Assembly: GCA_043228905.1 (NCBI GenBank)
Contig: JBHGNT010000007.1
Span: 20,584,001 to 20,648,000 of the forward strand
Direction of reading: 5' to 3'
Source of the DNA: Azolla caroliniana
Taxonomy: Eukaryota; Plantae; Polypodiophyta
Length of the DNA stretch: 64,000 nucleotides
This document shows, in pieces, positions 35,081 to 63,300 of the stretch (its first letter is position 1; every line of letters starts with the position of its first letter). The notes beneath the pieces were generated by a model. It worked only from the letters and a program-made list of their open reading frames with translations, had not been told where the DNA came from and did no database searches. The position numbers and the translations under genes are program-made.

Positions 35081-35265
35081 CGGAAGACCCGGTGATAACT
35101 GGATGTGGAGTACCTGGCAACGGAAGACCTAGTGAGAACCGGATGTGAAGTACCTGGCAACGGAAAAGCCGGTGAGAACTGGATGACAAGTACTCGGCAA
35201 GGAAGACCCGGTGATAACCGGATGACAAGTACCTGGCAAGGAAGACCCGGTGAGAACCGGATGTT
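35081..35265 (+). repeat. 39-40-bp U3 tandem repeats in the 5' LTR of I
   Basis: Unit GGAAGACCCGGTGAGAACCGGATG..AGTACCTGGCAA; 4 full plus 1 partial here, 1 plus 1 partial in the 3' LTR. Confidence 0.9.
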
Positions 35266-39575: not shown

Positions 39576-42500
39576 TGTCGTGCCTTTCGGCTCCGGATCG
39601 TTTGCGTGAGTCGGGTGGGAACCACTGGGGTTTTGGACTAGGAAGAGGAGAGTTTTAAGGCTAATAAGAATATAAATATGTTGTAAGAAAGAGTTATAGC
39701 AAACTCGTGAATCCCACGAGTGTATTGTATTAGATTAATCAATATGAATATAAGAATATAAACTTCGGTTGAAAGAGAATGATATAGAATCCTCGTGAAT
39801 CCCACGAGTATAGTTTATTAATTGGTGTTTTTTAGAAACATATCCAGTTTCCAAGTATTTCACACACAATTACATTGTGCTCCCCATCCTTATGTAGTGA
39901 TGAGGAAGTCTTAGTAATCCATGCTTTTTCTCTAACTATAGACCCCATGCTTTTCCTATAGATAGACTATATGCTTTATCTAAAGTGATCATGCTTTTTT
40001 CTAACTTGTGCGTTTTTTATTATGCACGCTAGATGTGTATGTGTAGCTTTTTCTTTTGTTATGCGTTTTTCTAATGTTTATCCTAGCGTGAATTTACCTT
40101 TCTATGTGGGACATCTATGCTTTAACACTAATGAAATGCTAGTGTAATGGTAAGACATTACATTATTAACATGGAGGTGCAAGGTTCGAATCTTGCCCTA
40201 TGCATGTTCCATTTATTTTGCTATTTTCTTCTATTTCTTCATTTTTTATTGAATCTAATACTATATACGTTTTTCACGTAGTGTACAAAATACACTACGA
40301 CACTCACCCCCTCCAAACCCGCACATCCTCCGGTATGTGCCGAAGTTGTTGGTGTTTGTTAGTCTCCTCCGTCCGGTCTCTAACCGATTGGTTTCGTTGC
40401 CGGCTCGTAGTACCCTCGACTTCTCTTGTTATGTTGACTTTGTCTCTCCATTTGGAGCACATCCATTCTTTCCACCCGAACCATTGTCGACATCCGATCC
40501 ACCATAGTCTTCGTTCGCTTTTTGCATGGCCCGCTTGGTCCTTGTCATCCGCGGTAGTATCTTTTCTTGCCCTCTTTCTTTTCTTCATCAATCTCGACTT
40601 CTTTTCGGATTTTCGGTTTAGTCGGATTAGCTTACTTCCGATTCGGTCTCGTCGGATCGTCTTTCGTTTAGTTCGGCTTCCTTTCCGATTTGTATTCGGT
40701 CGATCCGGACTCGGTTGATCGGTTTTTACCGATTCAGTGCTCTTTCGGGTCGGTTTCTTTTCTTTTCTTTTCGTCCGGATTTGCTTTCTTTTCTTCGTTT
40801 TCACCTGCCTTGTCCGGTTCGACTTTCGGCACTTCTTTCCGTTGTTCGCCACGTAGGTCCTCCGATATGTGCTCGTTGTTCGGTCCTCGTGTGGTTGTAA
40901 TGCATGCTTCTTTTCTCGCCGTAGCGTGTGCTTCTTTATTCGCCATAACACGCGTTTCTTTATTCGCCGTAGAGCGTGCTCTGTATTACGCGCTTCTCCC
41001 GTCGTAGACCCGACCTCCGCATTGTCGCACTTTCTTTTAGATTGGAATTTCGGATGGATCATTTTCCATCCGAACCGACTTCCGACTTTACCTTCCTCGC
41101 CGCCATCTCCCGTCTCTCCGGTCTCACGTTGGTTCTCGGACACAACCGCCGAAGTCTCTAGATATTGTTGGCATGAATCCTCGGTATTACCTTCTTTCGT
41201 AGTTTCACCCTTAGCATTCTTCTCGGCTATCTCTTCATCGTATTCGTCGGCTTCGACATTCGTTTTCTCTCCGCCACCTTCCGTCTCTTCGGTCTCACGT
41301 TGCCTTTCGATCGCAACCGCCGGAGTCTCTGGAATCAGTGGTGGGGAAGTCTCGATATGGCCATCCGTCGTTGATTCGTCCATAGCCACCTTCGATTCGA
41401 TTTCGTCTTTTGTGGCTACCTCCTTAATCACATCCGCTTCACACTCTTTATCTGCATCAATTATGCAAACATCTATTATGCTTACCCCTTTTTGACCCGA
41501 TGTCTCGGGCACTTGTATCCCGAAATTTCCTTCTACACTTGAATTATCGGCCTTATCCTTCGCCATCGTTCTTTCACAAGACGAGTGGGTGTCTTGTTCC
41601 ACTCTTTCTCCCGTGGTACCATCATGTTGTATTTCGGCCTTCATATTGGCTTCATCGTTTTTCCTCAATCGACCATCCTTCATGGGCCATGTCGTTGTTG
41701 ACGAGATTCTCAGCTTCCTTTCATCATGTCTTCGGCATACCCTTTCGACTTTGGCCCAATCCTCGGTAAGGCCGTTCGCACCGTCATCATCTTCGAGTTC
41801 GATCCCAATGTCCATCCTTTCTTTCCGATCGATCGATCTTACGAACATTAAGACTTTATCTTCTCCCACCAATCTTCGTTCCCGCTCCGAGAGTCGAGCA
41901 AGACGATGCTCGAACTCTAGGAATGCTTGTGTTGCACTTCGGTGGGTCTTCTCCGATGCCACCCATTCGTCGAATTCTCGCCGATCTTGTCCCTTCGATC
42001 TCTTGTAATCATATGACTCTCGTAAAGCTTCTTCGAATGACCCCCATGTCGAGTTTTGTTGCCGTATCTTGTGGATTCTCTCTTGTAGCTCATCCGTGGC
42101 CACCCGATTGAAGGATGTCACTTGCAATCCTTCCGGTATCCCATATCGTATCATCTCCGCCTTGTAGTCACGTAGATAGCATGACACATCGTTTCCGTTG
42201 AATTGTCCGTTTCGTTGTACGAGCCGCTTTACTGCCCCCGTGATCTCCGACATCACTCGTTGTTCTTGTAGCATCCGCTCGAACATCATCATCATCGTTA
42301 TACTCATTGCCTCTTCTTGATTCTCCATCTCCTTGCCACCCGCCTTCACGTCGGGTTCACCAACTGTGTCGTGCCTTTCGGCTCCGGATCGTTTGCGTGA
42401 GTCGGGTGGGAACCACTGGGGTTTTGGACTAGGAAGAGGAGAGTTTTAAGGCTAATAAGAATATAAATATGTTGTAAGAAAGAGTTATAGCAAACTCGTG

Positions 42501-43093: not shown

Positions 43094-44370
43094 GCGTATC
43101 ATTCCAGAACGAAGCACATCCAACGGAGGTACCACTAGATTCGGGAGCGAGTAGAAGACCGAGAGTTCATGCTAACAAAGATCCACACGGAGGAGAACGG
43201 GTCGGATATGCTGACCAAGGTGCTGACGCTCGACAAGCTAGATGCATACTGGAAGCGGATTGGATTGACAAGGCATCCCATGCCAGAGTGAAGGGGGAGT
43301 TTGTTAGGATCTCGATCCCTCCGGATGGCATACGAAGGCCCGACATCGGAAGACCCAGTGAGAACCGGATGTGGAGTACCCGGCAACGGAAGACCCGGTG
43401 AGAACCGAATGTTGCAGGCCCGGTGAGAATCTCTCATCGGATGGAAGGGACATATATGTAAATATGTTCTAGAGAGCCCACTGGGGCTATATTTGTAAAT
43501 AGCCCGAAAGTCATATTAGTATAAATATGACCTAGGGAAAACTTAATAGTTATGATGATAGAGTTACTGGTGTAACTTCTGTACAGTGCGTAAGAGTGAG
43601 AGAGAGAGCGATATACAGAGATCGTGTCTCTGTTGTAACCTCCGCTAGGCGAAGATTATGAGCAAGAGGTTGTTGCCTCTGTGCTCCCTGTTGTATTTAT
43701 TTGACATAGTGATAGTTTGGAGTCTGTGGAGTCCCGTGGTTTTTCCCTTTCAGGGTTTTCCATGTTAACATCCTGTGTATTCTCTTTCCGTTTTACGTAC
43801 TTACCCCCATTCCCATTTCTTTTGTGTTTGATTGTCATCAAGTGATCTACCCTTCGGTTGTGGCCGGAGATTATTCCACATATTTCTCGTCAGTTTCATA
43901 CATAAGGTGTTTTATAGACATGAGTCTATATAACAACTTCATTGATGAGACCGAAGTAGATGTTTTGTGGAAGACGATAGGGAGTATGTTTGAGAAGAAA
44001 AATTCCTTGAATAGAGTGTCCATCTTTAGGAAGATAATGAGGCTGAGATACTAAGATGGCTCGAGCATGGCTGACCACTTGAATGCATTTCAAGGGCTAA
44101 TAAACTAGACTCTATGTCTAGAAATACCTCTAATAGAAAAGATATTAGCCTTATTGTTGTTGGGCTCTCCCCTAGATAGTTGGGAGACACTTGTCGTGAC
44201 CTTAGGTAACTCAACACCACAAGGAAAACAATTGACACTAGATATTCTCAACTTGAGCCTTCTAAGTCAAGAAGCAAGACAAAAAGAGTGTGGCCCCAAC
44301 TCTGAGCATAAGGCCCTAATCATAGAAGGTGGCCCTAATAGAGGAAGCATTAGACAAAGAGGTTCACAAG

Positions 44371-45392
44371 ACATCTAGTCGAATGATTATGTTGTTTTGC
44401 ACACCTCCATCTATTCATTTACGTGATATCTTCCCTCTATCAAGTATATGGCCCACACCTCTCCATGAATCAGGGCACAACCATGGTTGAACCGGTGACC
44501 TATCGGACTACCGCCGATTACTTTACCACTCAGCTATACACCCTCACCGAAAAGAAACATTCCATTGCAATCCACCATTCATTCATGTACATAGATTCCT
44601 GTACATGAAATCTAGACTTCCTTTCGAAAGACCTCAACTCTTAGACTTAGGGCTCAGCCAGGGTTGAACTAGTGACCTATCAGACTTTAGCCGATTGCTG
44701 TAGCACTGAACTTTAAACCCGCGCCCAAAAGAAACATTATGTGGCAAACTTCCATTGACTCATGTAGAAGACATCCAAACGAATTATTATTTCAGTTCGG
44801 ACATCTCCTTGAATCAGAAGGTAGCTGGGGTTCATCGGAGACTTATCATACTTTAACTGATTGGTCTACCACTAAGATATAAATACGGGCCCCTAAAGAA
44901 ATATCATGTCGAAATATCCATTCATGTACATGAAATCTACACTTCTTAGAATTTGGGCTCAACAAGGGTTGAACTAATGATCTATCAGATTGTAGCCAAT
45001 TGCTGTAGCAGTGAAGTTTACACCCGCGCACAAAAGAAACATTTCGTAGCAAACGTCCACTGATTCATATAGAAGAAGTCCACAGTAATTATTACGTCAT
45101 TTCGGACATTTCCTGGAATCTGGAGCTAGGCGGGGTTGAACCGATGACCTATCGTACTACGGCCGATTGATATATCACTTCGATATACACCCCGTCAAAA
45201 AGGAAATATCACGTCGAAATCTCCATTGATTTATCTACAATATATCTAGTCGAATTATTATGTAGTTTTGCACACCTCCATCTATTCATTTATGTGATAT
45301 CTTCATCATCCATTAGGTATATGGCACACAACATCACCTTGAATCAGGGAGAAACCGGGGTTGAACTGATGACCTATCGAACTGCGGCTGAT
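44371..45392 (-). repeat. tRNA-Cys-derived tandem array, left block (about 6 monomers)
   Basis: Same five monomer types and spacers as 51412-56517; ends mid-tRNA at the junction with Gypsy F. Confidence 0.92.
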
Positions 45393-45418
45393 GACCACGA
45401 CTCCTAGAGAAATACGGG

Positions 45419-47229
45419 TTGGACGACGCGCTCCGGCTTTCGAAACGGGACTTCATGGAATGGGTGGAGTCCCCCGGCAAGGGAAGAAACGCGTCGGCAC
45501 TCCCCCGGGAGTTCGAAGAACGCTTTGCGCGCCTTTCGGCGCTTGACCGAACCGTTCTGGATACGAGCCGGGTCCTACTATTCGTCAAGTCGGTGGACGA
45601 GCGGGACCGGGATCAAGTCGGCTCTTTGCTGGAAACCGAAGACGGGCTGACGATCGACTGGGCTGCGGTTAAGAGAGTCTGTGGCCGTTTCGACAAACGG
45701 CGAGAATGGGCTGACAACGGGGCGGCTGGTGCGGGCTCAGTCACAGCAAGGAGGCTTGAACCGGCACCGCAAGGGCGAAGGGAAGAAACCCGGAAATGGC
45801 TAGAAACCGGTCCGGCTTCGACCGGCATGGTCAGTGGCTCGTCCGGAGGAGCAGCGCTGGAGGAGTTGACGCGGGTGATAAAGGATCTCCAGATTGCCCA
45901 GACTCGAAGGGAAGGCGGCGAACCGGCTCGTGACCGACGGCCGGTAGCAGGGAACAGGTGCATGTGGTGCGACGAGGTCGGCCACATCCGGAAGGACTGC
46001 GGCGATTTCGCTGAGGCGTTGAGGAACCGGGTGGTGTACCTGTGGGAAGGCCGGGTGCACGCCAGCAATACCAGAAGGGCCCTAAACCGAAATGACGGGC
46101 GAGGAGATATGAAGAGACTGATGGAAGAGGCAGCGGCCCGACACGTGGAGACCATCCACTACTCGGCGTCGGCCGGCATCCGGGTCGGGGGCAGCGAGGC
46201 CCGAAAGGAGGGCAAAGACGGATTCTGGTCGGCAATGCTGGGAGCTCTTGCCGGCCTACGGCTGAGGAAAGATGAAACGGACCACGTTGAGAGACGGGTC
46301 CGGGAAATAACCGGGTGGAGCGATCCGGTCGAGGAGAAGACGGCCTTCGTAGAAGCCGCCTGCCGGAACTACGAGGCTCTGGTAGAAGACAAACGAGTGG
46401 GGAAAGCCAGAGCGGCCGGACCCTCACAACGGTACGAGACCCGATTCGGGCAACGACGGGACGATGCCGGTGGGTCCAGTTCGCAGGATAACCCCAGGAA
46501 GGGCGGATACCGACTGGGGACGGAAATAGAAAGGACCACGGACCTACGAAAGGTCCTAGAAGAGCGGATCCTCGACAGCAAAGTGGAGCTGTCATTGCGG
46601 GAGGTGCTAGGGATCGCTAAGAAGGAGTTCCACGACTCCATTGTGGACTTGGTGAAGCGGAAGAGGCTGTTGACGGAGACGGAACCGGAAAGGCCGGTGG
46701 AGATGCGGACGACGCACATCGACGATTTGGCGCTGGAAGATGAGTGGGCGGAGAGCCACTATTCGAGGCCACACTGGGCCCGAGCGACCACGGAGACCCC
46801 GGTAAAGATCAGAGAAGTTCAGGAACCGGTGGTGGCATTGGTGGACCACGGTTCGGAATAAACCTGATGTCCATGGACTTCTATAAGAAGGGAAAGTGGC
46901 TGATCAACACCAAGCACGGGTGGAAGATACGGGCGGCGACGCGCGCCACCGAGGAACTGCACGGGGCCTACCCGAACGTGCGAGTCAAGATCGGCGACGT
47001 CGAGATTGACCAGCACTTCTTCGTACAGGAGACGTCCTCGCACCCGGTCATATTAGGGGAACCATACATCACGGCAACGCGAATGGAGACCAAGGTGCTG
47101 GACAACGGTTCGGCCTACGCGAGGGTCAAAAACCAGGACGGGCGCCATTCGGTTCAATTTCTGACGGTGCGGCCAAACCACGAGCGAAACCGCGAATCCC
47201 TCGGTGGCGAGAACCGGGAGGATTTTTAG
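45419..47229 (+). pseudogene. gag: gag-protease ORF1 of F, 5'-truncated, one frameshift about 46858
   Basis: CMWCDEVGHIRKDC knuckle, VALVDHGSE, HPVILGEPY; ends GAT TTT TAG. Confidence 0.9.
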
Positions 47230-47286
47230 AGAGGGCTGTCAAGGCGTGGGGCCAAGATAGCCCGGACACTCGGGAAAGACCCCACG
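47220..47286 (+). promoter_or_regulatory. Putative -1 ribosomal frameshift signal of F (G_GAU_UUU, UAG, pseudoknot)
   Basis: Stem1 GGGCTGTC/GATAGCCC, stem2 CGTGGGG/CCCCACG; -1 frame is open into pol. Confidence 0.85.
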
Positions 47287-50200
47287 ACTGTACGATAGAA
47301 CCGAAACCGAAGATACCTTGCACGATAGGTAGGAAATTTTGCTTCTCCAACGACGGAGGGTGTGTAATGGTCGGCATCGTTGGCCGAGAAAAGGCAAGGG
47401 CGGAGGAGCGACTTCGAGCGTGCGGAGTCCTTGGCCTGGACGAGGAAATCAGCGGAGCCGTGGAGGCGGTCTCCTTCGACGACACCTTGGGAATGCTGAG
47501 GAAGGTAGCTGGAGAAGACCTTAACGAAGACCGGACAATACCGGTATGTTCCGAAGAGATGTACGAAGTCATCGCGGACTTCAGTCAGGGGCTCAGGTCG
47601 GATCGGACGGCCCGAGTTAGCACGAAGTACAAGACTGTGGACCGGAAGGTAAGGCCAGTCGCGGCACCCTTACCGGAGGGCAGCGAGTCCCGGATCAGAG
47701 GGGTTGCGTCGGACCCCAGTTTACGAGATCCGGTCTGCATAGGACACACCTTCACCGACGGAACGCTCCGGGAGCTCAAAATCGGTGGGGGCGGGTTCGT
47801 ACTGCCGGCGGAGGAAGACCGGTTTTGGAGAAGCTCGGAAGGCACGGGAAAGCCTTCGCATTCTCGCCGGAAGAGATCGGGTGCGTAGACCCGACAATCG
47901 TGGACCCGATGGTGATATTCACGGTACCGTATGTACCATGGAATCTCAAGCCGATTCTAGTACCGAGAACTCACATCCCGAAGTTGATGGAGCTATTGAG
48001 GCAGAAAGTCGATATGGGTATTCTCGAATCGTCGAGCGCGCCATACTCGAATCGATGGTTTACCGTACCAAAGAAAAACGGAACATTGCGCTTCATTCAG
48101 GACCTGCAGCCGGTCAACAGAGTGACCATTCGGAACGCAAGAATCGGACCGACCATAGACGAGTTCGCGGAGGCCTTCGCCGGGAGGTCGATTTACTCGG
48201 TCGGCGATCTGTACTCGGGGTACGACCAGTTCCAGCTAGTCGTGGAGAGCAGAGACATTACGACGATGCGAACTCCCCTCGGCCTAGTACGAATGTGTAC
48301 CCTGCCACAAGGAGGGACCAACTCGGTGGCCCACATGGTGAATGCAATGAACAAGGTACTGAGGGATTGCATCCCGGACATCACCATGCCATTTCTAGAC
48401 GACATCCCGATCAAGGGGTGCCCGATGGAAGAGAAGGACGCGACACTCAGACCGGATGGATGCCGGCGATTCGTGGCAGCACACATCGACGACTGCGAGA
48501 AGGTGCTACAAAGGCTAGAGGATGCGAGGCTCACCTTCTCCGGGGAGAAATCGGCCTTCGGGCAATCAGAAATCCTGGTGGTCGGACACCTATGTGGACC
48601 ATATGGCCGGAAGCCGTCTCCGGCAAAAGTAGAAGCCATCTCCGCGATGAAGACCGACTGTAGCTCGGTTACGGAAGTTCGGAGGTTCCTGGGGGCATGC
48701 GCATTCTACCACATATGGATCCCGCACTACGCCCACGTTGCGGAGCCGCTATACGGGTTGCTGAAGAAGGGGCGGAAATTCGAGTGGCGAGACGAGCACA
48801 CGGAGTCGGTCCGGAAGCTGAAGGAAGCTCTTGTGGCAGCACCGGCGCTCCGGAAGGCTGTCTACGAGAAGGGTACCCCGGTATACATAACGGTGGATAC
48901 GAGTTCGACCGGGATCGGATGGGTCTTCAACCAAGAAGACATGAATGGCATTCGGTTCCCGATCCGATTCGGCGCGAAGGTCCTCAGTGAGCGACAACGA
49001 GGGTACGCCCAGGTTAAACGCGAACTCTGGGGTATCGTTTCGGCAGTAAAGGCCTACAAAGACTACCTGATCGGGACGGAGGTGATTATCGAGACGGATT
49101 GCCTGCCAATTCTCGGCATGGTTTTCGGATGCGTGACACCGGACTTGGCAATGCTCAGGTGGATAGCGTACATCAAGTCCCTGGATCGGGAAATACGACA
49201 CATTTCCGGAAAGGACAACGCCATGGCCGACATGCTTTCGAGGGCGAGGTTTGATGACGAGGGCGGCATGGTTTCGGAGGACGAAGAAGTCGGCGTGGAC
49301 TTCTTCGAGGCGGCGTACGTGACGACCGATGGGACGAGCACTCTGGCACTTAACGACTTCGAAGAGAGCAAGTACGACGGCGAGTGGCTCCAGATCGGTG
49401 GATTTTTGAGGACAATGACGCCGGATGCGTCATGGACGAAGGACGAGGCCAACCGGATCCGGAAGAAGGCTTACCGATTCTTTCTCCGGGACGGATACTT
49501 ATGGAAGCACCCGAAGAAGAGGAACGGCGTCCCGCTCCGGGTGGTGGCGATGAAGGAAGAACAGGAGGAGCTGCTGATGGCCTACCACGATAGCCCTTGG
49601 GTCGGACACCGTGGAACCTGGGCCACGTTCGAGAAGATAAAGGGGAAGTACTGGTGGTCGGGACTGTACTGGGACGTGCATCGGTTCGTGACAACTTGCG
49701 AGAGCTGTCAGATGCACTCCATAGTCCGACACCGGGACGAACTTCACCCTACGTACCCTCCGACCATCCACTTCAAATGGATGGTAGACCTGGTGACGAT
49801 GCCGATGGGAGTAGGACAGATGCGGTATCTGGTCCTGGCTCGGGAAGATTTGACGAACCAGGTGGAAGGCCGGGCCCTTCAGAACAAAACGACTGCAGCC
49901 GTATGTCGGTTCCTGCTCGAGAACGTAATATGCCGGTACGGGTGCGTCGGGAAGATCATGGCTGATCGCGGGGAGTTGGACGCCGAAGAGGCCGAGGAGT
50001 TGTTTGACCGGTTAGGGGTCAAGCTCTCGCTTACCACTGCATACAATCCGGAGGCAAATGGAAAGGTGGAACGCGGACATGAACCGATCGTCAAGGCGTT
50101 AGTTCGGGCATGCGGAGGGCAAGTCGGGAACTGGCCACGACTGCTGCCTTACGTGTTGTGGGCTGACCGAACTACGCACAGTTCGGTAACCGGATTCATG

Positions 50201-50722
50201 CCGACAGAGCTCATGTTTGGGCAGAAGCCGGTCATGCCGATGGAACGTACGATCTCCTCATGGGCAACCGTGGACTGGAGAAACGAGATGAGCCGGGAGG
50301 AACTGTTGGTGGCGCGCATACGACAGCTTGAGCGAAGACCGGAGGACGTGGAGCAGGCTGCGGGAAAGCTTCGGGTGGCAAGGACGAGGAACAAAGCCCG
50401 GTTCGACCGGACGCACCGGCTCCGACCGAAGAAGATCGAGGAAGGCGACTGGGTGCTAGTCTATGACAGTAGCCTCGACAACCAGCACCGAGCAACACGG
50501 AAGTTCGCAAGAAGGTGGTTCGGGCCTTACGTGGTACGAAGCGCCAACGACAACGGGACGTACCATCTGGCAGAACTCGACGGCACGAGAATGGCAATAC
50601 CAGTAGTTGGGAAGCGGATCAAAGCGTTCAAGAAGCGTCACGACGACGAGCCGGATCCGGATAACCTGGACCGGGACGACGAACGATCCGAAACCGAAGA
50701 AGAACCGACGGGCGAGGAATAA
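47220..50722 (+). CDS. pol: Pol ORF2 of F (RT-RNase H-integrase), one lesion about 47825; 965-aa open segment
   Basis: RT DLYSGYDQ and PFLDD; RNase H TVDTS; integrase HHCC (YHDSPWVGHRG...CESCQ), DDE core, GPY motif; no chromodomain. Confidence 0.93.
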
Positions 50723-52036
50723 AGGCTGGACCGGTTTTTTCCGTCCCAACTCAATTTGGCGCATGCCGGTGGATGCGCGGTTAGGTGGGGGCGGATGTTG
50801 TGAAGAAAACCGTCCACGAGCGGAATCGGTGCGCCGGAGCATAGGAACCGGCTCTTCATGCACGCACGCCTTACGTTGTACATAGAAGATCCTAGGTAGG
50901 AAGATTCGGTAGGTAAGAAGTTAATAGGAAACGGCTCCCTTCTTGCCTATAAAAGGAGGGAGACGAGGAGGATGAAGGGATCGCGAAGTAAGAGAGGACG
51001 AAGTGCTGTCGGATTGTGGGCCGAAGGCTTCTCTCTCTTCCAAACTCCATAGCTCCTTTCTGTGCAGGTTTCGGGAGGCTCGCGCTGCTCTGAGGAATGC
51101 CTGAGTGCTTCCGGCAGCACCTCCAACCTACTCCTTTCTTTCTGTGCGTTTACGAACAGGCATCGGCATCTGTTCGCCGGCCTGTTCGGTTGTAACCGAC
51201 TTCGTCCTCTTGTTGTTTGTCTTTGTTCATACATACATACATTCGTGTCTCTCTGTGTCGCTGTCCCACTCGCGTCTTTGGGTCGAAGGGCCGTGTCCCT
51301 GTGGATCTATGCTCGCACGTAGTGGGTCTCTTCTCCTTTCTCTCTTGCTCTTCGGTACAGGACCCCCGAGGTCCTGCCTCTTTCTACGCATCCGCGAGGA
51401 ATACCTCGACAACGCACAAAAGAAACATTATGTGGGAAACTTCCATTGACTCATGTAGAAGACGTCCAAACGAATTATTATTTCAGTTTGGACATCTCCT
51501 TGAATCAAAAGGTAGTCGGGGTTAATCAGAGACTTATCATACTTTAACGGATTGGTCTACCACTAAGATATACAGACGGGCCACTAAAGAAATATCACGT
51601 CGAAATATCCATTCATGTACATGAAATCTATACTTCTTAGAATTTGGGCTCAGCAAGGGTTGAACTAATGATCTATCAGATTGTAGCCAATTTTTGTAAC
51701 ACTAAAGTTTACACCCGCACACAAAAGAAACATTTCGTGGCAAACGTCCACTGATTCATATAGAAGAAGTCCACACTAATTAGTAAGTCATTTCGGACAT
51801 TTCCTAGAATCTGGAGCCAGGCGGGGTTGAACCGATTACCTATCGTACTACGGCCGGTTGATCTATCACTTAGATATACATGCTGTCAAAAAGGAAATAT
51901 CATGTCGAAATCTCCATTGATTTATCTACAATACATCTAGTGGAATGATTATGTAGTTTTGCACACATCCATCTATTCATTTACGTGATATCTTCAGCAT
52001 CCATTAGGTATATGGCGCACAACATCTCCTTGAATT

Positions 52037-52108
52037 AGGGCGCAACCGGGGTCGAACCGGTGACCTATCGGACTGCAGCCGATTGCTCTACCACTGAGCT
52101 ATACGCCC
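52037..52108 (-). tRNA. trnC-GCA: tRNA-Cys(GCA)
   Basis: GGGCGTA TA GCTC AGTGGTA GAGC A ATCGG CTGCAGT CCGAT AGGTC ACCGG TTCGACC CCGGT TGCGCCC T: all stems pair, U73 discriminator, intact A and B boxes. Confidence 0.92.
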
Positions 52109-52897
52109 ACGCACAAAAGTGATATTACGTCACAATCTGCCATTCATTCATCTACTAGATATCGAGTCAAATTATTACGAGTTTAGGGAAACTTCCATCG
52201 ATTCATGTACATGACATCTAGACTTTATTTTTAAAGACATCTCAGCTTTGAGACGTACGGCTCAACCGGGGTTGAACTAGTGACCTATCAGACTTTAGTC
52301 GATTGTTGTAGCACTGAACTTTAGACCCATGTGGCAAACGTCCATTGACTCATGTAGAAGACGTCCAAACGAATTATTGTTTCAGTTTGGACATCTCCTT
52401 GAATCAGAAGGTAGCTGAGATTCATTAGAGACTTATCGTACTTGAACCGATTGGTGTACCACTAAGATATACATTCCGGCCACTAAAGAAATATCACGTC
52501 GAAATATCCATTCATGTACATCAAATATACAGTTCATTTCTAAAGGCACCTCACCTCTTAGAATTTGGGCTCAACAAGGGTTGAACTAATGATCTATCAG
52601 ATTGTAGCCAATTGCTGTAGCAGTGAGGTTTACACCCGCGCACAAAAGAAACATTTCGTGGCAAACCTCCACTGATTCATATAGAAGAAGTCCATACTAA
52701 TTATGAAGTCAATTCGGACATCCGATTAATCTAGCACTTAGATATACATCACAAAGAAAAAATCATGTCGAAATCTCCATTGATTTATCTACAAGACATC
52801 TAGTCGAATGATTATCTAGTTTTGCACACCTCCATCTATTCATTTACGTGATATGTTCATTCAATTAGGTATATGGCATACAACATCTCCTTGAATT

Positions 52898-52969
52898 AGG
52901 GCGCAACCGGGGTTGAACCGGTGACCTATCGGACTGCACCCGATTGCTCTACCACTGAGCTATACACCA
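52898..52969 (-). pseudogene. tRNA-Cys(GCA) copy with G1 and position-32 substitutions
   Basis: Same sequence as the intact copies but the first acceptor pair is broken. Confidence 0.75.
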
Positions 52970-54955
52970 TTTATTCATGTATTAGATATATCCATTCGAA
53001 CTATTATGAGATTCCGGATACTTCCATCAATTCACTAACATGAAATCTAGACTTTATTTTGAAAGGCACCGCAGTTTTTAGACGTAGGGCTCAACCAGGA
53101 TTGAACTAGTGACCTATCAGACTTTAGCCGATTGTTGTAGCACTGAACTTTACACCCGCGAACAAAAGAAACATTATGTGGCCAAATTCCATTGACTCAT
53201 GTAGAAGACGTCCAAACGAATTATTATTTTAGTTTGGACATCTCCTTGAATCAGAAGGTAGCTGGGGTTCATCGGAGATTTATCGTATTTCAACCGATTG
53301 GTCTACCACTAAGATATATATCCTCAGCACTAAGGAATTATCACATCGATATATCCATTCATTTGCATGAACTCTACACTTCATTTCGAAAGGCACGTCA
53401 CCTCTTAGAATTTGGGCTCAGCAAGGGTTGAACTAATGATCTATCAGATTGTAGCCAATTTATGTAGCACTGAAGTTTACACCCGCGGACAAAAGAAACA
53501 TTTCGTGGCAAACCTCCACTGATTCATATAGAAGAAGTCCACAATAATTATTACGTCATTTTGGACATTTCCTGGAATCTGGAGCCAGGCGGGGTTGAAC
53601 CGGTGACCTATCGTACTACGGCCGATTGATCTATCACTTAGATATACACCCCGTCAAGAAGGAAATATCACGTCGAAATCTCCATTGATTTATCTACAAT
53701 ACATCTAGTCGAATTATTATGTAGTTTTGCACACCTCCATCTATTCATTTACGTGATATCTTCAGCATCCATTACGTATATGGCACACAACATCTCCCTT
53801 AATCAGGCACAACCGGGGTTGAACTGGTGACCTATCGGACTACTGCCAATTGCTCTACCATTGAGCTATACACCCATGCAAAAAAGAAACATTACGTCAC
53901 AATCCGCCATTCATTCATCTACTAGATATACAGTCCAGTTATTATGAGATTTCAGACACTTCCATCGATTCATGTATATGAAATCTACACTTTATTTTGA
54001 AAAACACCTCAACTCTTAGACGTACGGCTCAGACGGGGTTGACCTAGTGACCTATCAGACTTTAGCCGATTGGTGTAGCACTGAACTTTAGACCCACACA
54101 TAAAAGAAAAATTATGTGGAAAACCTCCATTGACTCATGTAGAAGACGTCCAAACGAATTATTATTTCACTTCGGACATTTCCTTAAATCAGAAGGTAGC
54201 TAGGGTTCATCGGAGACTTATCGTACTTCAACCGTTTGGTCTACCACTAAGATATACATCGCGGCCACTAAAGAAATATCATGTCCAAATATGCATTCAC
54301 GTGCATGACATCTACACTTCATTTCGAAAGGCACCTCACATCTTAGAATTTGGGCTCAGCAAGGGTTGATCTAATGACCTATCAGACTGTAACCAGTTGT
54401 TGTAGCACTAAAGTTTACACCTGCACACAAAAGAAATATTTCGTGGCAAACCTCCACTGATTCCTATAGAAGAAGTCCACATTAATTATTATGTCGTTTC
54501 GGACATTTCTAGGAATCAGGAGGCAATACGGCCGATTGATCTATCACTTAGATATACACCCCATCAAAAAGGAAATATCACGTCGAAATCTCCATTGATT
54601 TATCTACAATACATCTAGTGGAATGATTATGTAGTTTTGCACACCTCCATCTATTCATTTACGTGATATCTTCAACATCCATTACGTATATGGCCGAAAA
54701 GAAACATTTTGTGACAAACCTCCACTGATTCATATAGAAGAAGTCCATACTAATTATGAAGTCAATTCGGACATCCGATTAATCTAGCACTTAGATATAC
54801 ATCACAAAGAAAAAATCATGTCGAAATCTCCATTGATTTATCTACAAGACATCTAGTCCTGACGAACGATTATGTAATTTTGCACACCTCCATCTATTCA
54901 TTTATATGATATGTTCACTCCATTAGGTATATGGCATACAACATCTCCTTTAATC

Positions 54956-55027
54956 AGGGCGCAACCGGGGTTGAACCGGTGACCTATCGGACTGCAGCCG
55001 ATTGCTCTACCACTGAGCTATACACCC
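54956..55027 (-). tRNA. trnC-GCA: tRNA-Cys(GCA)
   Basis: Complete 72-nt cloverleaf, two G-U pairs in the acceptor stem, T loop TTCAACC. Confidence 0.85.
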
Positions 55028-55385
55028 CCGCACCAAAAAAACATCTAGTGGAATGATTATGTAGTTTTGCAAACCTCCATCTATTCATTTACGTGATATC
55101 TTCAGCATCCATTACGTATATGGCCCAAAAGAAACATTTCGTGACAAACCTCCACTGATTCATATAGAAGAATTCCATACTAATTATTAAGTCAATTCGG
55201 ACATCCGATTGATCTAGCACTTAGATATACATCACAAAGAAAATATCATGTCGAAATCTCCATTGATTTATCTACAAGACATCTAGTCCTAACAAACGAT
55301 TATGTAATTTTGCACACCTCCATCTATTCATTTATATGATATGTTCACTCCATTAGGTATATGGCATACAACATCTCCTTTAATC

Positions 55386-55457
55386 AGGGCGCAACCGGGG
55401 TTGAACCGGTGACCTATCAGACTGCAGCCGATTGCTCTACCACTGAGCTATACACCC
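55386..55457 (-). tRNA. trnC-GCA: tRNA-Cys(GCA), one extra G-U pair in the anticodon stem
   Basis: One substitution relative to the copy at 54956-55027. Confidence 0.75.
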
Positions 55458-55815
55458 ATGCACCAAAAAAACATCTAGTGGAATGATTATGTAGTTTTGC
55501 AAACCTCCATCTATTCATTTACGTGATATCTTCAGCATGCATTACGTATATAGCCCAAAAGAAACATTTCGTGACAAACCTCCACTGATTCATATAGAAG
55601 AAGTCCATACTAATTATTAAGTCAATTCAGACATCCGATTGATCTACCACTTAGATATACATCACAAAGAAAATATCACGTCGAAATCTCCATTGATTTA
55701 TCTACAAGCCATCTAGTCCTGACGAATGATTATGTAATTTTGCACACCTCCATCTATTCATTTATATGATATGTTCACTCCATTAGGTATATGGCATACA
55801 ACATCTCCTTTAATC

Positions 55816-55887
55816 AGGGCGCAATTGGGGTTGAACCGGTGACCTATCGGACTGCAACCGATTGCTCTACCACTGAGCTATACACCC
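55816..55887 (-). pseudogene. tRNA-Cys(GCA) pseudogene
   Basis: T stem broken by two mismatches (ACCGG/CAATT). Confidence 0.75.
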
Positions 55888-56627
55888 ACGCACCAAAGAA
55901 ACATTATGTTGCAATCCACCATTCATTCATCTATTAGATATCTAGTTGAATTATTATGAGATTCTGGATACTTCCATCGATTCATGTACATGAAATCTAG
56001 ACTTGATTTTGAAAGGCGCCGCAGTTCTTAGACGTAGGGCTCAGCCAGGATTGAACTAGTGACCTATCAGACTTTAGCCGATTGCTGTAGCACTGAACTT
56101 TACACCCGCGCACAAAAGAAACATTATGTGGCAAACTTCCATTGACTCATGTAGAAGACGTCCAAACGAATTATTATTTTAGTTCGGAGATATCCTTGAA
56201 TCAGAAGGTAGCTGGGGTTCATAGGAGATTTATTGTATTTCAACCCATTGGTCTACCACTAAGATATATATCCCGGCCAGTAAGGAAATATCACATCGAA
56301 ATATCCATTCATTTCCATGAACTCTACACTTCCATCGATTCATGTACATGAAATCTAGACTTGATTTCAAAAGGCACCTCAACTCTTAGACATAGGGCTC
56401 AACCGGGGTTGAACTAGCGACCTATTAGACTATAGCTGATTGTTGTAGCACTAAACTTTACACCTGCGCAAAAGAAACATTACGTGGCAAACCTCCATTG
56501 ACTCGTATAGAAGACGTTGTCGTAGTGTGAATTACACACTATGTGGAATATGTAAAACACTACATCCGATTTAGAGTCCGTATAATAAATAAATAAATAA
56601 AATAAAATATTAAAAATATTTATTACA

Positions 56628-56699
56628 TGCATAGGGTAGGATTCGAACCTTGTACCGCCACATAGACAAACCTCAGGCTTACCACTATACTAGCATACT
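56628..56699 (-). promoter_or_regulatory. tRNA-like Pol III promoter in the LTR of G (homologues at 21210-21275, 30241-30312, 40133-40204, 42924-42995 on +)
   Basis: A box TAGTATAGTGG and B box GGTTCGAATCC at tRNA spacing, followed by oligo-T. Confidence 0.75.
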
Positions 56700-59175
56700 A
56701 TGAATCTTAAAAGTTAGACTAAACTTTATCCCATGTAAATATTCTAGATATGCATGGTACAAAAAGTTATTCATTCATACACACTTGAGTTAAAAGAAAA
56801 GATGGGACAAAAAGCTAATCATGCACATGCAATGTGCATGAAAACTAAAGTTAGGAAAAGCAAGATGCTTGCATGTGATAAACTTAGACTCTTTCAACAC
56901 TATATAAGGAAGGGAGAAAGATGTATAGAGGTTGTTGATTATTTTACAAGGGTTGATTAATATAATATATTCGTGGGATTTACGAATTTGCTAACTTTTT
57001 TTTCTCTCTTAATCTAACTACTCTCTAATACACTATACTCGTGGGATTCACGAGTTTTTCATCTCTTTCTTTCTTACAATATATTTCATATTCTTAATTT
57101 CCTTAGAATTTTCTTTTCTCCTAGTCCAAAACCTCAATTGTTCCCGCCCGACTCACGTAACGATCCGGAGCCGAAAGGCACGACAGATTTGGTGAACCCG
57201 ACATGAACACGGGTGGCAAGGAGATGGAAAATCAACTGGAGGCTAACAACATGATGATAATGTTGGAGCGGATGCTTCAAGAACAACGTGCAATGTCGGA
57301 GATAGCGGCGACAGTAGAGCGGCTCGTGCATTGGATCGGGCAATTCAACGGAAAGGACGTATCACGGTATCTTCGGGACTACAAGGCGGAAATGATACGG
57401 TGCGGGATTTCGGAAGGACTGCAAGTGACATCCTTCAACCGGGTGGCTACCGACAGGCTTCAAGCAAGTATCCACGGGCTACGACAACAAAATCTGACGT
57501 GGGAAGCGTTTGAAGAGGCACTAAAGACCACGTTCGCTATCGAGGACTCCTCCAAGGCAACGTGGAGAGGATTTAAGGATTGGGTGGAAACGTCGGACAA
57601 GGGGATGAAGGTCCTCAATGTGTTTTAGGCATTCGAAAGTCGGTTCGGGAGGCTGTCCGCGAGAGATCAAGCTATCCTTGCACCGAACAAAGTGATCATG
57701 TTCTTACAAGCCGTAGACATCCGGGACCGGAAGGATCTTGAAGTGCTTCTAGGGGACACGACTACCGAGAGTGGCCTCACCGAAACATGGGAAAGCGTGC
57801 AGGATATCGTCGCGCAATACACAAAGAGGGGGCAATGGCTTGCCAACGAAGAAAAGAGGGTTTCGGAACCAACTCCGGATCGGAAGACCATGAACTGCGG
57901 GCTCAAGAGACTACAACCGAGAAGGGAATCGACACAACCACGGTGGAGCAATTGTTGAAGGAGATGGAGAGTCTGAAAATCGCGATGGTGAAGAAGACGG
58001 AAGACCGTCCCACATGTTCCAAGTACATGGATTGTCGATGCATATGGTGCGATAGCACCAAACATGATCGGAGAGATTGCGACGAGCACAAGGAAATCGG
58101 ATTCATTCGATGGACTCATGACGAAGAAGGTCCTAGAGGACGAGATCGTGGCGAAAGACAATTATGTGACAACCGCAGGAATACGTGTTGGGGAGTCATC
58201 TGCAGCAAAGGTGTCTTTTTGGTCGGAAGTGTTAGAAATTTCGAAGAAAGCCGACCATGATGAAATCCGAAGCGTTGCGGAATGTATCCGGGAAGCTACG
58301 GGATGGGAGTGCCCCATAGATAAGAATAGCGTACATGCGCTATGTCAATTGCATCAAGTGTATGTGGATGAAAAATGACGGCGCGCAGATGATGCGGCCG
58401 GACCATTGAAGACACCGGAAAGCTGGAACTCCGGAGGGAAGGGAAAAGAAAAGACGATTCCGGCATTCAAGCTCGCCTTGGACATCGAACAACAAACGAA
58501 CTTGAAAAAGGTGTTGGAAGAGAGAATCCTCGATAGCTGGGTAGAATTTTCGCTTCGGGAATTACTCGGAATAGCGAAGAAGGAGTTCCATGATCTTCTT
58601 GTGGATCTCGTGAAGAGAAAAAGACAAAGTACGGAGGAAAATGCACCGATGGTGAATGCAAATACCATTTTGATGAACGACACCAAACTGGAGGATGAGA
58701 TTCCGAATTCCCACTGTACAAAGCCACACTAGGTGCGTGCAACTACCGAGACTACAGTCTGAATCGGCAACATCAAAGAGCCCGTGCTAGCATTGATTGA
58801 TCACGGATCGGAAATCAATTTGATGTCTAAGGAGTTCTACCAGAAGGGGAAGTGGCCTATTAACACCAATCATGGATGGAAGATCTGGGCGGCCACTAAA
58901 GCAACGAAAGATCTATTTGTGGCTTGTCCGGATGTGACGGTGAAGATCGGGGATGTCGAGATCGACCAAAATTTCTTCGTACAAGACGAGGTCTCACACT
59001 CTGTGATCCTCGGGCAACCCTTTACCATGACTTCACGGATGGAGACAAAGGTGCTCGATAGCGGTGCGACTTTCGCACGAATTCGGAGCCAAAGTGGAGG
59101 AAAATCCATCCAATTCCTAACTGTGCCGGCAAATCATGAAAGGAACAAGAGAGAGCTCTTGTCCCAAACAAGGAT

Positions 59176-60389: not shown

Positions 60390-63300
60390 TGTTAGGAAAC
60401 AAGTCCCTCCGGATGGGAAGTGAGAAAAACAGTACTGATGAGCAAACTCGGCCGAGGCCGATAGGTCGAGGCCAAAACCGGATGAGGAGTACCCAGCTAC
60501 GGAAGACCCGGTGAGAACCGGATGACGAGTACCCGGCTACGGAGAGCCAGATGGTGCAGACCTGGTGAGAACCGGATGAGGAGTACCCGGAAACGGAAGC
60601 CAATTTCTCCTCGGAAAGTGTTAGGTGTACATCTTCTAACTTTTGAAGCACTTTCTCGCAATCACGAATATGGTCGACTATGAACTTTCTGACAGGAACT
60701 ACACGCTCCCTATGTGCAACGCTCGGCCACAACCGAGCTTAGAATCATACACAGAAAAAACAGGGAATGAATGCACGACACAGTGAAGAGAAGAGTCCAC
60801 AGGATGTTTATGTGGAAAAACCCAAACTAGGGAAAAAACCACGGCAGCCCACAGGCTGCAAACTATCACTATGTTACAGTGTACAACAGTAAAGCACTGA
60901 GGCAACAACCTTGAGCTTTCTATCTTCGCCACAGGCAGTGGTTACAACAGAGGCAACGACCTCTTCCTCTCTCTCTCTCTCTCTCTCTCTGTACACAGTT
61001 ACGCGCTCTGATTTTGCGCAAACAAGAATGACCACAACAACCATCACTAAGTTTGCCCTAAGTCATATTTATACTAATAGGACTTTGCGGCTATTTACAA
61101 ATATGTTTTCTGAGAGTCCATCGTGGCAAACTTAGTGATGGTTGTTGTGGTCATTCTTGTTACTGCATGATCAGAGCGCGTAACTGTGTACAGAGAGAGA
61201 GAGAGAGAAAGAGGTTGGTTCCTCTGTTGTAACCGCCACCTGTGGCGAAGATAGAAAGCTCGAGGTTGTTGCCTCGGTGCTTTACTGTTGTACACTGTAA
61301 CATAGTGATAGTTTGCAGCTTGTGGGCTGCCGTGGTTTTTTCCCTAGTTTGGGTTTTTCCACGTAAACATCCTGTGTACTCTTCTCTTCACTGTGTCGTG
61401 CATTCATTCCCCGTTTATTCTGTGTATGATTCTAAGCTCGGTTGTGGCCGAGCGTTGCGCATAGGGAGCTTGTAGTTCCTGTCAAATTGGTATCAGAGCG
61501 AAACGACACAGAAAGTGGACGAATCGTTGGGAGGTATGTTCAAGCTCACCGGCTCCAATTGGTGTGGAAGTCGAAGATGAGGGACATGCTCGTGGTTAAA
61601 GATCTTTGGTTGCCGGTTCAGTTCGGGGACAAGAGATCGGACAAGATCGATGCCACGATATGGGAGGTGATGCACATGAAGACAACGGCGTACATATGGT
61701 GCTTCATCGACATGAGCCTATACAACAACTTCAATGAAGAGAGTAAGGGTCATGAGCTCTGGAAAAAGATCGGTATTATGTTTCAAAACAAAAATGCTGT
61801 TAACCAGGTTTCGGTATTCCGGAAGCTAGTAAGACTTTGGTACCAAGATGGCTCCAGCATGGTGGAGCACATGAATGCCTTCCAGGGGCTGATCCACCAG
61901 GCAACATCATTGGAAGTACCTCTCGCCAATGAGGTACTGGCACTACTCCTGCTCGGTTCCCTCCCAGATAGCTGGGAGACATTGGTTGTCACTTTGGGCA
62001 ATGACGGGCCAGAAGGGAAACGGTTATCCCTAGCAAGAGTGAAGTCGAGCTTGCTAGATGAGGAGGCGCGTCGGAAAGACAAGGATACGAGCTCCGACTC
62101 CAAAGCGCTCCTTACTAAATCGGAATGCGGAAAACAAAGGAACCGTTGTCCCTAGAACCGGGAAAAGTCGGGGACACAGTCAAAGTCAAGGGAGAGGCCT
62201 ACTTGCTTCTATTGTGGCAAGTCGGGACACTTCTAGAAGAACCGTCGGCACTTCCGAAAAGACAAGGAAACTAACAGTACCGATTCGAAGCGGACACCGG
62301 ACCAGAACGGTAAAGACCGGACGGGACCAGACCGGAAGGGAACGACGGAAATCACAACAAGTGAAGAAGAGTTGATGCTCATCACCAAGGAGAGTGAGTT
62401 GAACCTTGCCGGCGACGAGACAACGTGGGTTGTCGATTCCGGAGCATCGTTCCACCTTACCCCGGACCGGAAAGGCTTCTCATCCTACACAGCTGGTGAT
62501 GATGGCTGTGTCCGGATGGGGAATGAAGGCACGTGCCGAATTGTCAACATAGGAGATGTGTGGTTGACAAAACCAACCGGATGCAAGCTGCTGCTGAAGG
62601 ATGTCTGACACGTTCCGGAGGTTTGACTGAACTTGATCTAGATGAGGAAGGCTACACGGGTAGCATCCGGAATGGAGTCATGAAACTGGCTGGAAGCTCA
62701 AGGCGGTTCGAGCAGATAACAGAGGGGAATACCGGAGGGAGTTCGAGGAGTACTATCGGTCGAAGGGAATCCGGCTTAAATTTACCATGCCGAAGACGCC
62801 AGAACTAAACGGGCTGGCCGAGAGGATGAACCAGACCATAATGGAGAGGGTCCGGAGTATGCTGGCGCAGGCAAAGTTACCCAAGACGTTTTGGGCTGAG
62901 GCGCTATCGACAACGACGTATGTGATAAATAGATCACCCTCAGTGCCCTTGGCTGGAGACACACCGCAGAAGGTGTGGACCAGTAAGGAAGTGTCCTACC
63001 GGCATTTGAAGGTGTTCGGGTGTTTTGCATACGTGCATATAGCTAAGGATCGTAGAGGAAAGTTAGATCCAAAGACCCGGCCATGCATATTCCTCGGTTA
63101 CGGTGACGATGAGTTCGGCTACCGAGTGTGGGACCTGGTCGACAAGAAGGTATTCCGGAGTCGAGATATTATCTACATGGAGGACAAGACGCTCGCCGAC
63201 AGGGAGTCGGAGAAGAAAATAATGAACTCCGAGTCGACCGGTAAGGATCGATTCTACAATGAGCCGACCCAACCGGCAAGAAACCGGTTAGCACTCGAGG

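What the first reader, a model, noticed from the sequence alone, without database searches (positions are those of the whole stretch)
44371..56517. tRNA-Cys gene turned into a satellite with a five-monomer higher-order repeat
Seen: about 30 head-to-tail monomers, each a 72-nt tRNA-Cys homologue on the minus strand plus a spacer built from a roughly 45-bp subrepeat (CCATTGATTCATGTA...). Five diverged monomer types recur in fixed order about every 0.9 kb. Only one type (52037, 52898, 53805, 54956, 55386, 55816) stays close to a true cloverleaf; the other four are stably degenerate. A younger 430-bp unit amplified precisely the intact type three times. Known: tandem tRNA clusters exist in plants (Arabidopsis Pro and Tyr-Ser clusters), and tRNA genes act as centromeric chromatin barriers in fission yeast. 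Inference: either a tRNA gene array decaying into satellite with one maintained gene per unit, or a TFIIIC-binding structural domain embedded in heterochromatin.
Basis: partly seen in the sequence, partly recalled or inferred. Interest (0 to 1): 0.82.

Follow-up and report, generated by a model that had tools for sequence, protein, structure and literature searches.

The report
Decaying cysteine tRNA gene array
This is a short row of 33 whole or partial copies of a cysteine tRNA gene in transposon-filled plant DNA, built by repeating a five-copy block whose other four copies had likely already died; only three copies still pair fully as a tRNA, and the rest are likely decaying under DNA methylation, much like known Arabidopsis tRNA clusters.

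Summary
The array is real. It holds 33 tRNA-Cys-derived heads (27 full length) on the minus strand, in five types and in fixed order. The spacer sub-repeat is about 55 bp, not 45.

History had two phases. While the five types diverged, the type-A head barely changed (branch ~0 against 0.21 for its trailer). After the block was amplified, A heads taken together changed as fast as their trailers, with an excess of C-to-T changes at CG and CHG sites. Three of eight A heads are badly decayed, two of them without the GCA anticodon; three pair fully. 'One maintained gene per unit' therefore fails; one kept lineage per locus is possible.

B boxes are not retained above chance, and contig depth points to low copy number, so neither a TFIIIC domain nor a major satellite is supported. 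One sequencing run suggests about ten times more tRNA-Cys-like heads elsewhere in the genome. Block-duplicated tRNA clusters are published for Arabidopsis, and this scan noted a similar tRNA-Thr array in another genome.

The parts
44366..45392 (-). Left array segment: one full A-B-C-D-E block plus an A head cut at tRNA position 26
44472..44543 (-). Type-A head, decayed (8 changes, anticodon GTA, 2 broken pairs); ARAGORN calls it tRNA-Tyr
45346..45392 (-). Type-A head lacking its first 25 bases at a deletion junction (7 changes in 47)
45393..51411 (+). Ty3/gypsy retroelement without 5' LTR: DUF4100 gag (below Pfam cut-off), RT, RNase H, integrase; purine tract 50783-50795 and presumed 3' LTR 50796-51411 (TG...CA)
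   Evidence: LTR limits read from the sequence, no second LTR in the window
51412..56517 (-). Right array segment: C-D-E, A-B-C-D-e, A-B-C-D-E, A-B-C-D-E(cut), three 430-bp units, B-C-B
52037..52108 (-). Type-A tRNA-Cys(GCA), all 21 pairs kept, best Rfam score (67.1 bits); its two differences from the type consensus are private to this copy
52898..52969 (-). Type-A head, 2 changes, first base and upstream flank lost at a deletion
53804..53875 (-). Type-A head, decayed (8 changes, anticodon GTA)
54611..55904 (.). Three 430-bp units (A head, A trailer, E remnant, part of a second A trailer), 13-19 differences between copies
54956..55027 (-). Type-A tRNA-Cys(GCA) identical to the type consensus; best candidate for a recently working gene
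55386..55457 (-). Type-A tRNA-Cys(GCA), one C-to-T change giving a G-U pair in the anticodon stem
55816..55887 (-). Type-A head, 3 changes, 2 broken T-stem pairs
53189..53252 (-). Example of the ~55-bp spacer sub-repeat (type C), an imperfect palindrome; one to two and a half copies per monomer
56518..57185 (+). LTR of a second gypsy-type element that cuts the right end of the array
   Evidence: related LTRs at 43097, 30413 and 40249
43348..44365 (+). Copia-type LTR (97% like 35201-35744) and gag-like stub, joined to the left end of the array without an LTR
   Evidence: contig 25 of run X4 bridges the junction; 'gag-like' for this stub is read from the sequence, not scanned

Best explanation
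This is a short tandem cluster of tRNA-Cys(GCA) genes and pseudogenes that likely arose in two rounds of duplication and is now likely methylated and mostly decaying. Round 1 (inferred): a ~166-bp unit of tRNA plus spacer was duplicated to five copies, related as ((B,D),(C,E),A). B to E lost pairing and anticodon, while the A head stayed equal to the common tRNA-Cys sequence of the genome although its spacer drifted about 20% (shown); selection on one working copy is the likely cause. Round 2 (inferred): the ~0.9-kb five-copy block was multiplied by unequal recombination, with patchwork exchanges and deletions, the last of which gave the 430-bp unit. Since then A heads have on average changed at the neutral rate with a CG/CHG C-to-T excess (shown), though one lineage kept a perfect head until the triplication. 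Retroelement insertions and deletions then cut the array (shown). At most one to three copies could still make tRNA, and they would need RNase Z to remove a ~140-nt trailer (predicted).
For: Types and order. Tree of type consensuses: A head branch ~0.000, A trailer branch 0.206; A-specific changes 0 of 17 in heads against 14 of 36 in trailers (p=0.002) and 1 of 29 against 12 of 35 (p=0.004). At every variable head site listed for run X1 the majority letter is that of the A consensus. Within-type diversity of heads: A 0.091, B 0.094, C 0.137, D 0.089, E 0.074. A heads 25/335 against trailers 40/710; 4 of 24 changes in the head of the 430-bp copies, 4.0 expected. C-to-T/G-to-A changes at 18/160 CG, 16/210 CHG and 21/605 CHH sites, p=0.0003. 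Nearest relatives differ by position (C53323 with C56273 0.05; D45025 with D52637 0.05; E45192 with E53651 0.05), which points to patchwork exchange. No CAA at -7..-3 and no T4 within 25 nt in 7 of 7 full A heads. Summed contig depth 200-850 on the array against 10^5 on the retroelements in X1; the window's own array would give 250-570 on the A 3' flank where 400-920 is seen.
Against: A heads are uneven (chi-square p=0.006 or 0.037, depending on the representative used): the 55027 lineage has 0/72 head changes against 13/146 in its trailer (p=0.005, one of eight uncorrected tests), so some constraint or conversion lasted into round 2. Methylation and silencing are inferred from mutations only; shared changes are counted once per copy. 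Gene conversion from other tRNA-Cys copies would leave the same signal as selection. The natural ends of the array are not in the window and no genome was held. Summed contig depth is not a copy number; my calibration ignores read errors and heterozygosity.
Confidence: 0.75

Rival explanations
1. No copy here ever worked within the array: the A head is kept canonical by gene conversion from the many other tRNA-Cys copies in the genome, and the whole array is silent.
For: Conservation is confined to the 72-nt head; A consensus equals the majority sequence in run X1, where heads are about ten times more abundant than the window explains. A copies lack the CAA motif and a near terminator, while other loci in X1 show an upstream CAA (loose ends).
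Against: B to E heads, which started from the same sequence, were not rescued (11-21 differences from A). Selection on one copy explains this more simply.
Confidence: 0.12
2. A reserve cluster like the Arabidopsis Ser-Tyr-Tyr array: normally silenced, switched on in certain cells, with A heads kept for that purpose.
For: Three heads keep all 21 pairs, GCA, the U discriminator and both boxes; the 55027 lineage was conserved. Reactivation of the SYY cluster is reported (PMC13437025 passages; PMC12308677 listing only).
Against: Neutral change since the triplication; three of eight A heads badly decayed; flanks not conserved, unlike SYY (PMC13437025 section 11); array cut by retroelements.
Confidence: 0.07
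3. A TFIIIC-binding or barrier domain in heterochromatin.
For: Types A, B, D and E keep the GTTCAA core in their consensus.
Against: B-box changes 7 against 8.1 expected, core 3 against 3.1; type C lacks the box; retroelements lie on both sides and inside.
Confidence: 0.03
4. Each monomer is a copied Pol III transcript (tRNA head, ~95-150-nt body, T-run), a SINE-like or dicistronic tRNA-hairpin RNA gene joined head to tail.
For: Most monomers end in a T-rich run a few bases before the next head; type-C trailers fold into a strong hairpin (z -2.8 to -8.4).
Against: No C or D box in the A trailer; no Rfam match to the spacers at E<=1; 6 pairs with two-sided change against 6.4 in shuffles, and no consensus structure, over 29 sub-repeats; the hairpin is weak in type A (z +0.2 to -1.5). 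Other heads in X1 share upstream flanks, which fits DNA-level duplication.
Confidence: 0.03

Closest known systems
Arabidopsis chromosome 5 tRNA-Cys(GCA) cluster (PMC10701932, parts 1-2 of 5 read; PMC7544208, passages and section 14 read)
   Same: Same isotype; head-to-tail units with 84-94% identity; a pseudogene beside genes; stem-breaking changes; variable unit number; methylated heterochromatic setting with transposable elements.
   Different: There 4-6 units of ~420 bp, nearly all high-confidence genes with CAA and poly(T). Here 33 heads at 139-225 bp spacing, four of five types dead, a second-level block repeat, and no CAA or near terminator.
Arabidopsis Ser-Tyr-Tyr cluster, 27 blocks (PMC13437025 sections 10-11 read; PMC7544208 passages)
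   Same: A multi-tRNA block repeated as a whole; copies group by position in the block (Tyr1 and Tyr2 clades), which is the higher-order structure seen here.
   Different: SYY keeps its genes and flanks conserved and mixes two isotypes; this block comes from one isotype, carries fixed pseudogene classes and is decaying.
Maize tRNA-Ile array of 28 and other plant homoclusters (PMC11700998, passages)
   Same: One isotype in a compact tandem array.
   Different: Reported as arrays of high-confidence genes; no pseudogene block structure in the passages seen.
Plant satellites proposed to derive from a tRNA gene (Benslimane et al. 1986; title seen in the reference list of PMC4411372, paper not held)
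   Same: tRNA-derived monomer of satellite size (166-167 bp in types C and E) with internal sub-repeats.
   Different: Those are high-copy satellites with remote tRNA likeness (recalled); here the ancestry is plain but the array is short and low in copy number.

Membership tests
Plant tRNA gene homocluster | At least 5 tRNA genes of one isotype within 5 kb (PMC13437025) | tested here: inconclusive
   ARAGORN Cys genes plus one mutated copy within 52037-55887, but only 3 keep all pairs; tRNAscan-SE high-confidence filtering was not available.
Plant tRNA gene homocluster | Internal A and B boxes present | tested here: met
   7 of 7 full type-A heads keep GTTCRA and an A-box-like stretch; box consensus recalled.
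Plant tRNA gene homocluster | Upstream CAA at -7..-3 and a downstream poly(T) close to the gene (PMC7544208 section 14) | tested here: not met
   0 of 7 for both; first T4 at +136 to +145 in five, +187 in one, none within 260 in one. The rule was set in angiosperms.
Plant tRNA gene homocluster | DNA methylation and silencing | not testable with these tools
   Only the mutation signature was measured.
Satellite DNA with higher-order repeat | Monomers group by position in the unit and recur in fixed order | tested here: met
   27 of 27 nearest neighbours; 27 of 31 adjacent pairs.
Satellite DNA with higher-order repeat | Long, high-copy, homogenised array | tested here: not met
   About 6.1 kb; same-type monomers 5-22% apart outside the 430-bp family; contig depth near that expected from the window alone.
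Satellite DNA with higher-order repeat | Centromeric position or CENH3 binding | not testable with these tools
   No genome held.
tRNA-derived SINE | Dispersed head-body-tail copies with unrelated flanks and target-site duplications | tested here: not met
   All copies in the window are tandem; other heads in X1 carry different 3' flanks and shared 5' flanks (10 of 46 loose-end rows shown).
Dicistronic tRNA-snoRNA gene | C and D boxes or a conserved structured RNA in the trailer | tested here: not met
TFIIIC-bound barrier or ETC-type site | B box kept above the rest of the head | tested here: not met
   7 changes against 8.1 expected, P=0.42; low power with 51 events.
TFIIIC-bound barrier or ETC-type site | TFIIIC occupancy without Pol III | not testable with these tools
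   Needs ChIP or CUT&Tag.

The most novel reading that the evidence does not exclude
The array is one member of a genome-wide tRNA-Cys expansion (of order 100 heads in several tandem families) in a likely seed-free plant, caught in the act of turning a tRNA gene into satellite DNA: a 166-bp monomer, a five-monomer higher-order unit, and one working tRNA lineage, made with a ~140-nt trailer, that is kept at each step. It would be a dated series for the old idea that plant satellites arise from tRNA genes.
Probability: 0.15. Interest if true: 0.55.

Novelty: new variant of a known kind. Interest (0 to 1): 0.3.

Why it matters
It shows clearly how a tRNA cluster can gain a satellite-like higher-order structure with fixed pseudogene classes, and it separates a period of constraint on one copy from later neutral decay. 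It also warns annotators: decayed Cys heads are called tRNA-Tyr by ARAGORN. It points to no new function, and the ingredients are published for Arabidopsis.

Tried and rejected
Whole-genome copy count: no genome held. Lineage from the protein atlas: no answer; a paper search for DUF4100 listed no paper with that word among the 8 shown, so the link of DUF4100 to mosses is recalled only. Expression: no RNA holder listed; nothing from the two RNA-labelled runs was laid on the best head or on the array (X12); this blank is not used as evidence. A 45-bp sub-repeat: no such period; offsets are 53-55 bp, and the self-alignment test is significant only for type B (p=0.005; A p=0.11, C 0.07, D 0.11, E 0.09), while the motif spacing of 55 recurs throughout. 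snoRNA or conserved hairpin in the spacer: rejected; cells paired (62%) exceed the slid controls (36-47%), which shows an old palindrome, not RNA selection. B-box retention: rejected. tRNA-Tyr identity of 44472 and 53804: rejected, they are type-A Cys heads with C34T. Assembly artefact: rejected. Literature: searches listed no paper on a five-monomer tRNA-pseudogene higher-order array; supplements were not read, and cluster tables there (PMC13437025 Table S3) may list Cys clusters in seed-free plants.
Full report
Setting. Pfam finds only copia and gypsy retroelement domains in the window: 17 of the 28 frames scanned had a match, all of that kind or DUF4100. The source is a plant by inference from these elements and the CHG-type mutation excess; earlier unchecked notes on this genome suggest a fern or other seed-free plant, which I did not test. 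No whole genome was held.

Observation. BLAST with the 54956 head finds 31 homologues, all on the minus strand between 44472 and 56465; two more remnants give 33: A x8, B x6, C x6, D x5, E x4 (one cut) and four short E remnants. ARAGORN genes and Rfam 10 tRNA matches. Among the 27 full-length heads the nearest neighbour is always of the same type, and 27 of 31 adjacent pairs follow the canonical order, against 6.4 in shuffles. The higher-order structure is therefore real, with units of 861-906 bp. The six cut or remnant heads were left out of the distance tests but included in the order test.

Bases 45393-51411 are a Ty3/gypsy element with gag, RT, RNase H and integrase, a purine tract and one presumed LTR; no second LTR is in the window. 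On its left an A head stops at position 26, and on its right the array resumes just upstream of a B head that is gone, so a deletion likely removed the 5' LTR together with array DNA. The right end of the array is another LTR (56518) and the left end joins a copia-type stub. The array proper is about 6.1 kb and its natural ends are not visible.

Monomer anatomy. Types C and E are 166-167 bp: 72-nt head plus about 95 nt. Types A and B carry one extra ~55-bp sub-repeat (220-225 bp); D is 139-161 bp. The sub-repeat is an imperfect palindrome. It folds strongly in type C (z -2.8 to -8.4) but shows no compensatory change over 29 aligned copies, a subset of the 46 motif hits. Consensus heads keep 21 (A), 18 (B), 11 (C), 16 (D) and 13 (E) of 21 pairs, with anticodons GCA, AAA, GAA, ACA and GTA.

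Phase 1, divergence of the types. Heads give ((B,D),(C,E),A) with bootstrap 99 and 94; trailers support (C,E) at 96 but do not recover (B,D) in the free tree. On the fixed tree the A head branch is ~0 and the A trailer branch 0.206. A-specific changes are 0 of 17 in heads against 14 of 36 in trailers (p=0.002), or 1 of 29 against 12 of 35 (p=0.004). In run X1 the majority letter at each listed head site is that of the A consensus, including the two sites where the 52037 copy differs. So the A head, and not its spacer, stayed equal to the common tRNA-Cys. Selection on one working copy is the simplest cause; conversion from other copies is not excluded.

Phase 2, after block amplification. Head diversity within A (0.091) matches B, D and E (0.094, 0.089, 0.074; C 0.137) and the A trailer (0.092). 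Over five independent A lineages heads changed at 25/335 against 40/710 in trailers (p=0.27), or 27/335 against 37/711 (p=0.10) with the other representative. Three A heads carry 8, 8 and 7 changes, and two of them lost GCA. Among the three 430-bp copies 4 of 24 changes fall in the head, 4.0 expected. C-to-T and G-to-A changes occur at 11% of CG, 8% of CHG and 3.5% of CHH sites (p=0.0003), the signature expected of methylated plant repeats. Against a purely neutral reading, A heads are uneven (p=0.006-0.037) and the 55027 lineage has 0/72 head against 13/146 trailer changes (p=0.005, uncorrected). One kept lineage per locus fits; one kept gene per unit does not.

Could it be transcribed? Three heads (52037, 54956, 55386) keep all pairs, both boxes, GCA and a U discriminator. 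None of seven full A heads has CAA at -7..-3 or a T4 run within 25 nt; in five the first T4 lies 136-145 nt downstream. Clustered Arabidopsis Pro, Tyr and Cys genes have both features (PMC7544208 section 14). Any transcript would carry a long trailer that RNase Z could remove (established for plant tRNA-snoRNA precursors; title seen, content recalled).

Copy number. Nine DNA runs from four studies hold part of the stretch; three were laid. Their contigs match the array closely and also show paralogous pieces about 11-12% diverged. Summed depth in X1 is 200-850 on the array, about 40 on unique pieces and 10^5 on the retroelements. A simulation from the window alone predicts 250-570 on the A 3' flank (seen 400-920), 126-250 on the 5' flank (seen about 600) and 800-1000 on the head (seen up to 12,000). 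This family is thus at most a few times larger than the window shows, whereas tRNA-Cys-like heads with other flanks appear about ten times more numerous. The tool warns that such depth is no copy number, so this is a rough lead from one run.

Structural role. Of 51 changes that separate B-E from A, 7 fall in the B box (8.1 expected) and 8 in the A box (7.5 expected). Nothing suggests selection for TFIIIC binding, though power is low.

Comparison. The Arabidopsis chromosome 5 tRNA-Cys cluster has 4-6 units, a pseudogene and stem-breaking variants (PMC10701932) and is methylated and heterochromatic (PMC7544208). The Ser-Tyr-Tyr cluster already shows position-specific clades from whole-block duplication (PMC13437025 section 11). 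What differs here is the tight spacing, four fixed pseudogene classes and the missing flanking signals. An unchecked note of this scan describes the same design with tRNA-Thr in another genome. My seven topical searches listed no paper on this exact arrangement; supplements were not read.

Verdict. A real, neatly structured, low-copy tRNA-Cys gene and pseudogene array that is mostly decaying: a new variant of a known kind, interest 0.3.

Noticed in passing
window 51411-51412: The presumed 3' LTR of the inner gypsy element ends flush against position -1 of a deleted type-B tRNA head, which recalls Ty3 insertion at Pol III start sites (recalled). One case only; the element at 56518 lies 52 nt upstream of a head.
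   Followed up: partly
run X1 laid on window 52037-52108: Head depth is about twelve times what the window explains, and loose ends show at least two other groups of shared flanks, one with an upstream CAA: probably further tRNA-Cys clusters in this genome.
   Followed up: partly
run X13 laid on window 52037-52108: Two low-depth contigs (about 3) carry tRNA-Cys-like heads with other flanks; one has the array's sub-repeat motif directly upstream, the other a box-C-like heptamer about 18 nt downstream. Single contigs, possibly errors or pseudogenes.
   Followed up: no
window type-C trailers, e.g. 53189-53252: A near-perfect 15-bp stem, far stronger in type C than in the other types; may be a template-switch correction of an old quasi-palindrome.
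   Followed up: partly
window 52105 and 52053: The 52037 copy has C4 and G56, both creating CpG and improving the tRNA score, which are nearly absent from run X1; accession difference, conversion or assembly error.
   Followed up: partly
window 60690-61484: An 800-bp inverted repeat (88% identity) made of LTR-related sequence, between a broken gypsy and a copia gag.
   Followed up: no
window 10357-14238 (-), LTRs near 9488 and 14220: A copia element with one open frame of 1293 aa and 100% identical 300-nt LTR stretches: a recent insertion.
   Followed up: no
window 40304-42445 (-): A 713-aa open frame without Pfam match between near-identical LTR copies (39576, 42367): possibly a non-autonomous element.
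   Followed up: no
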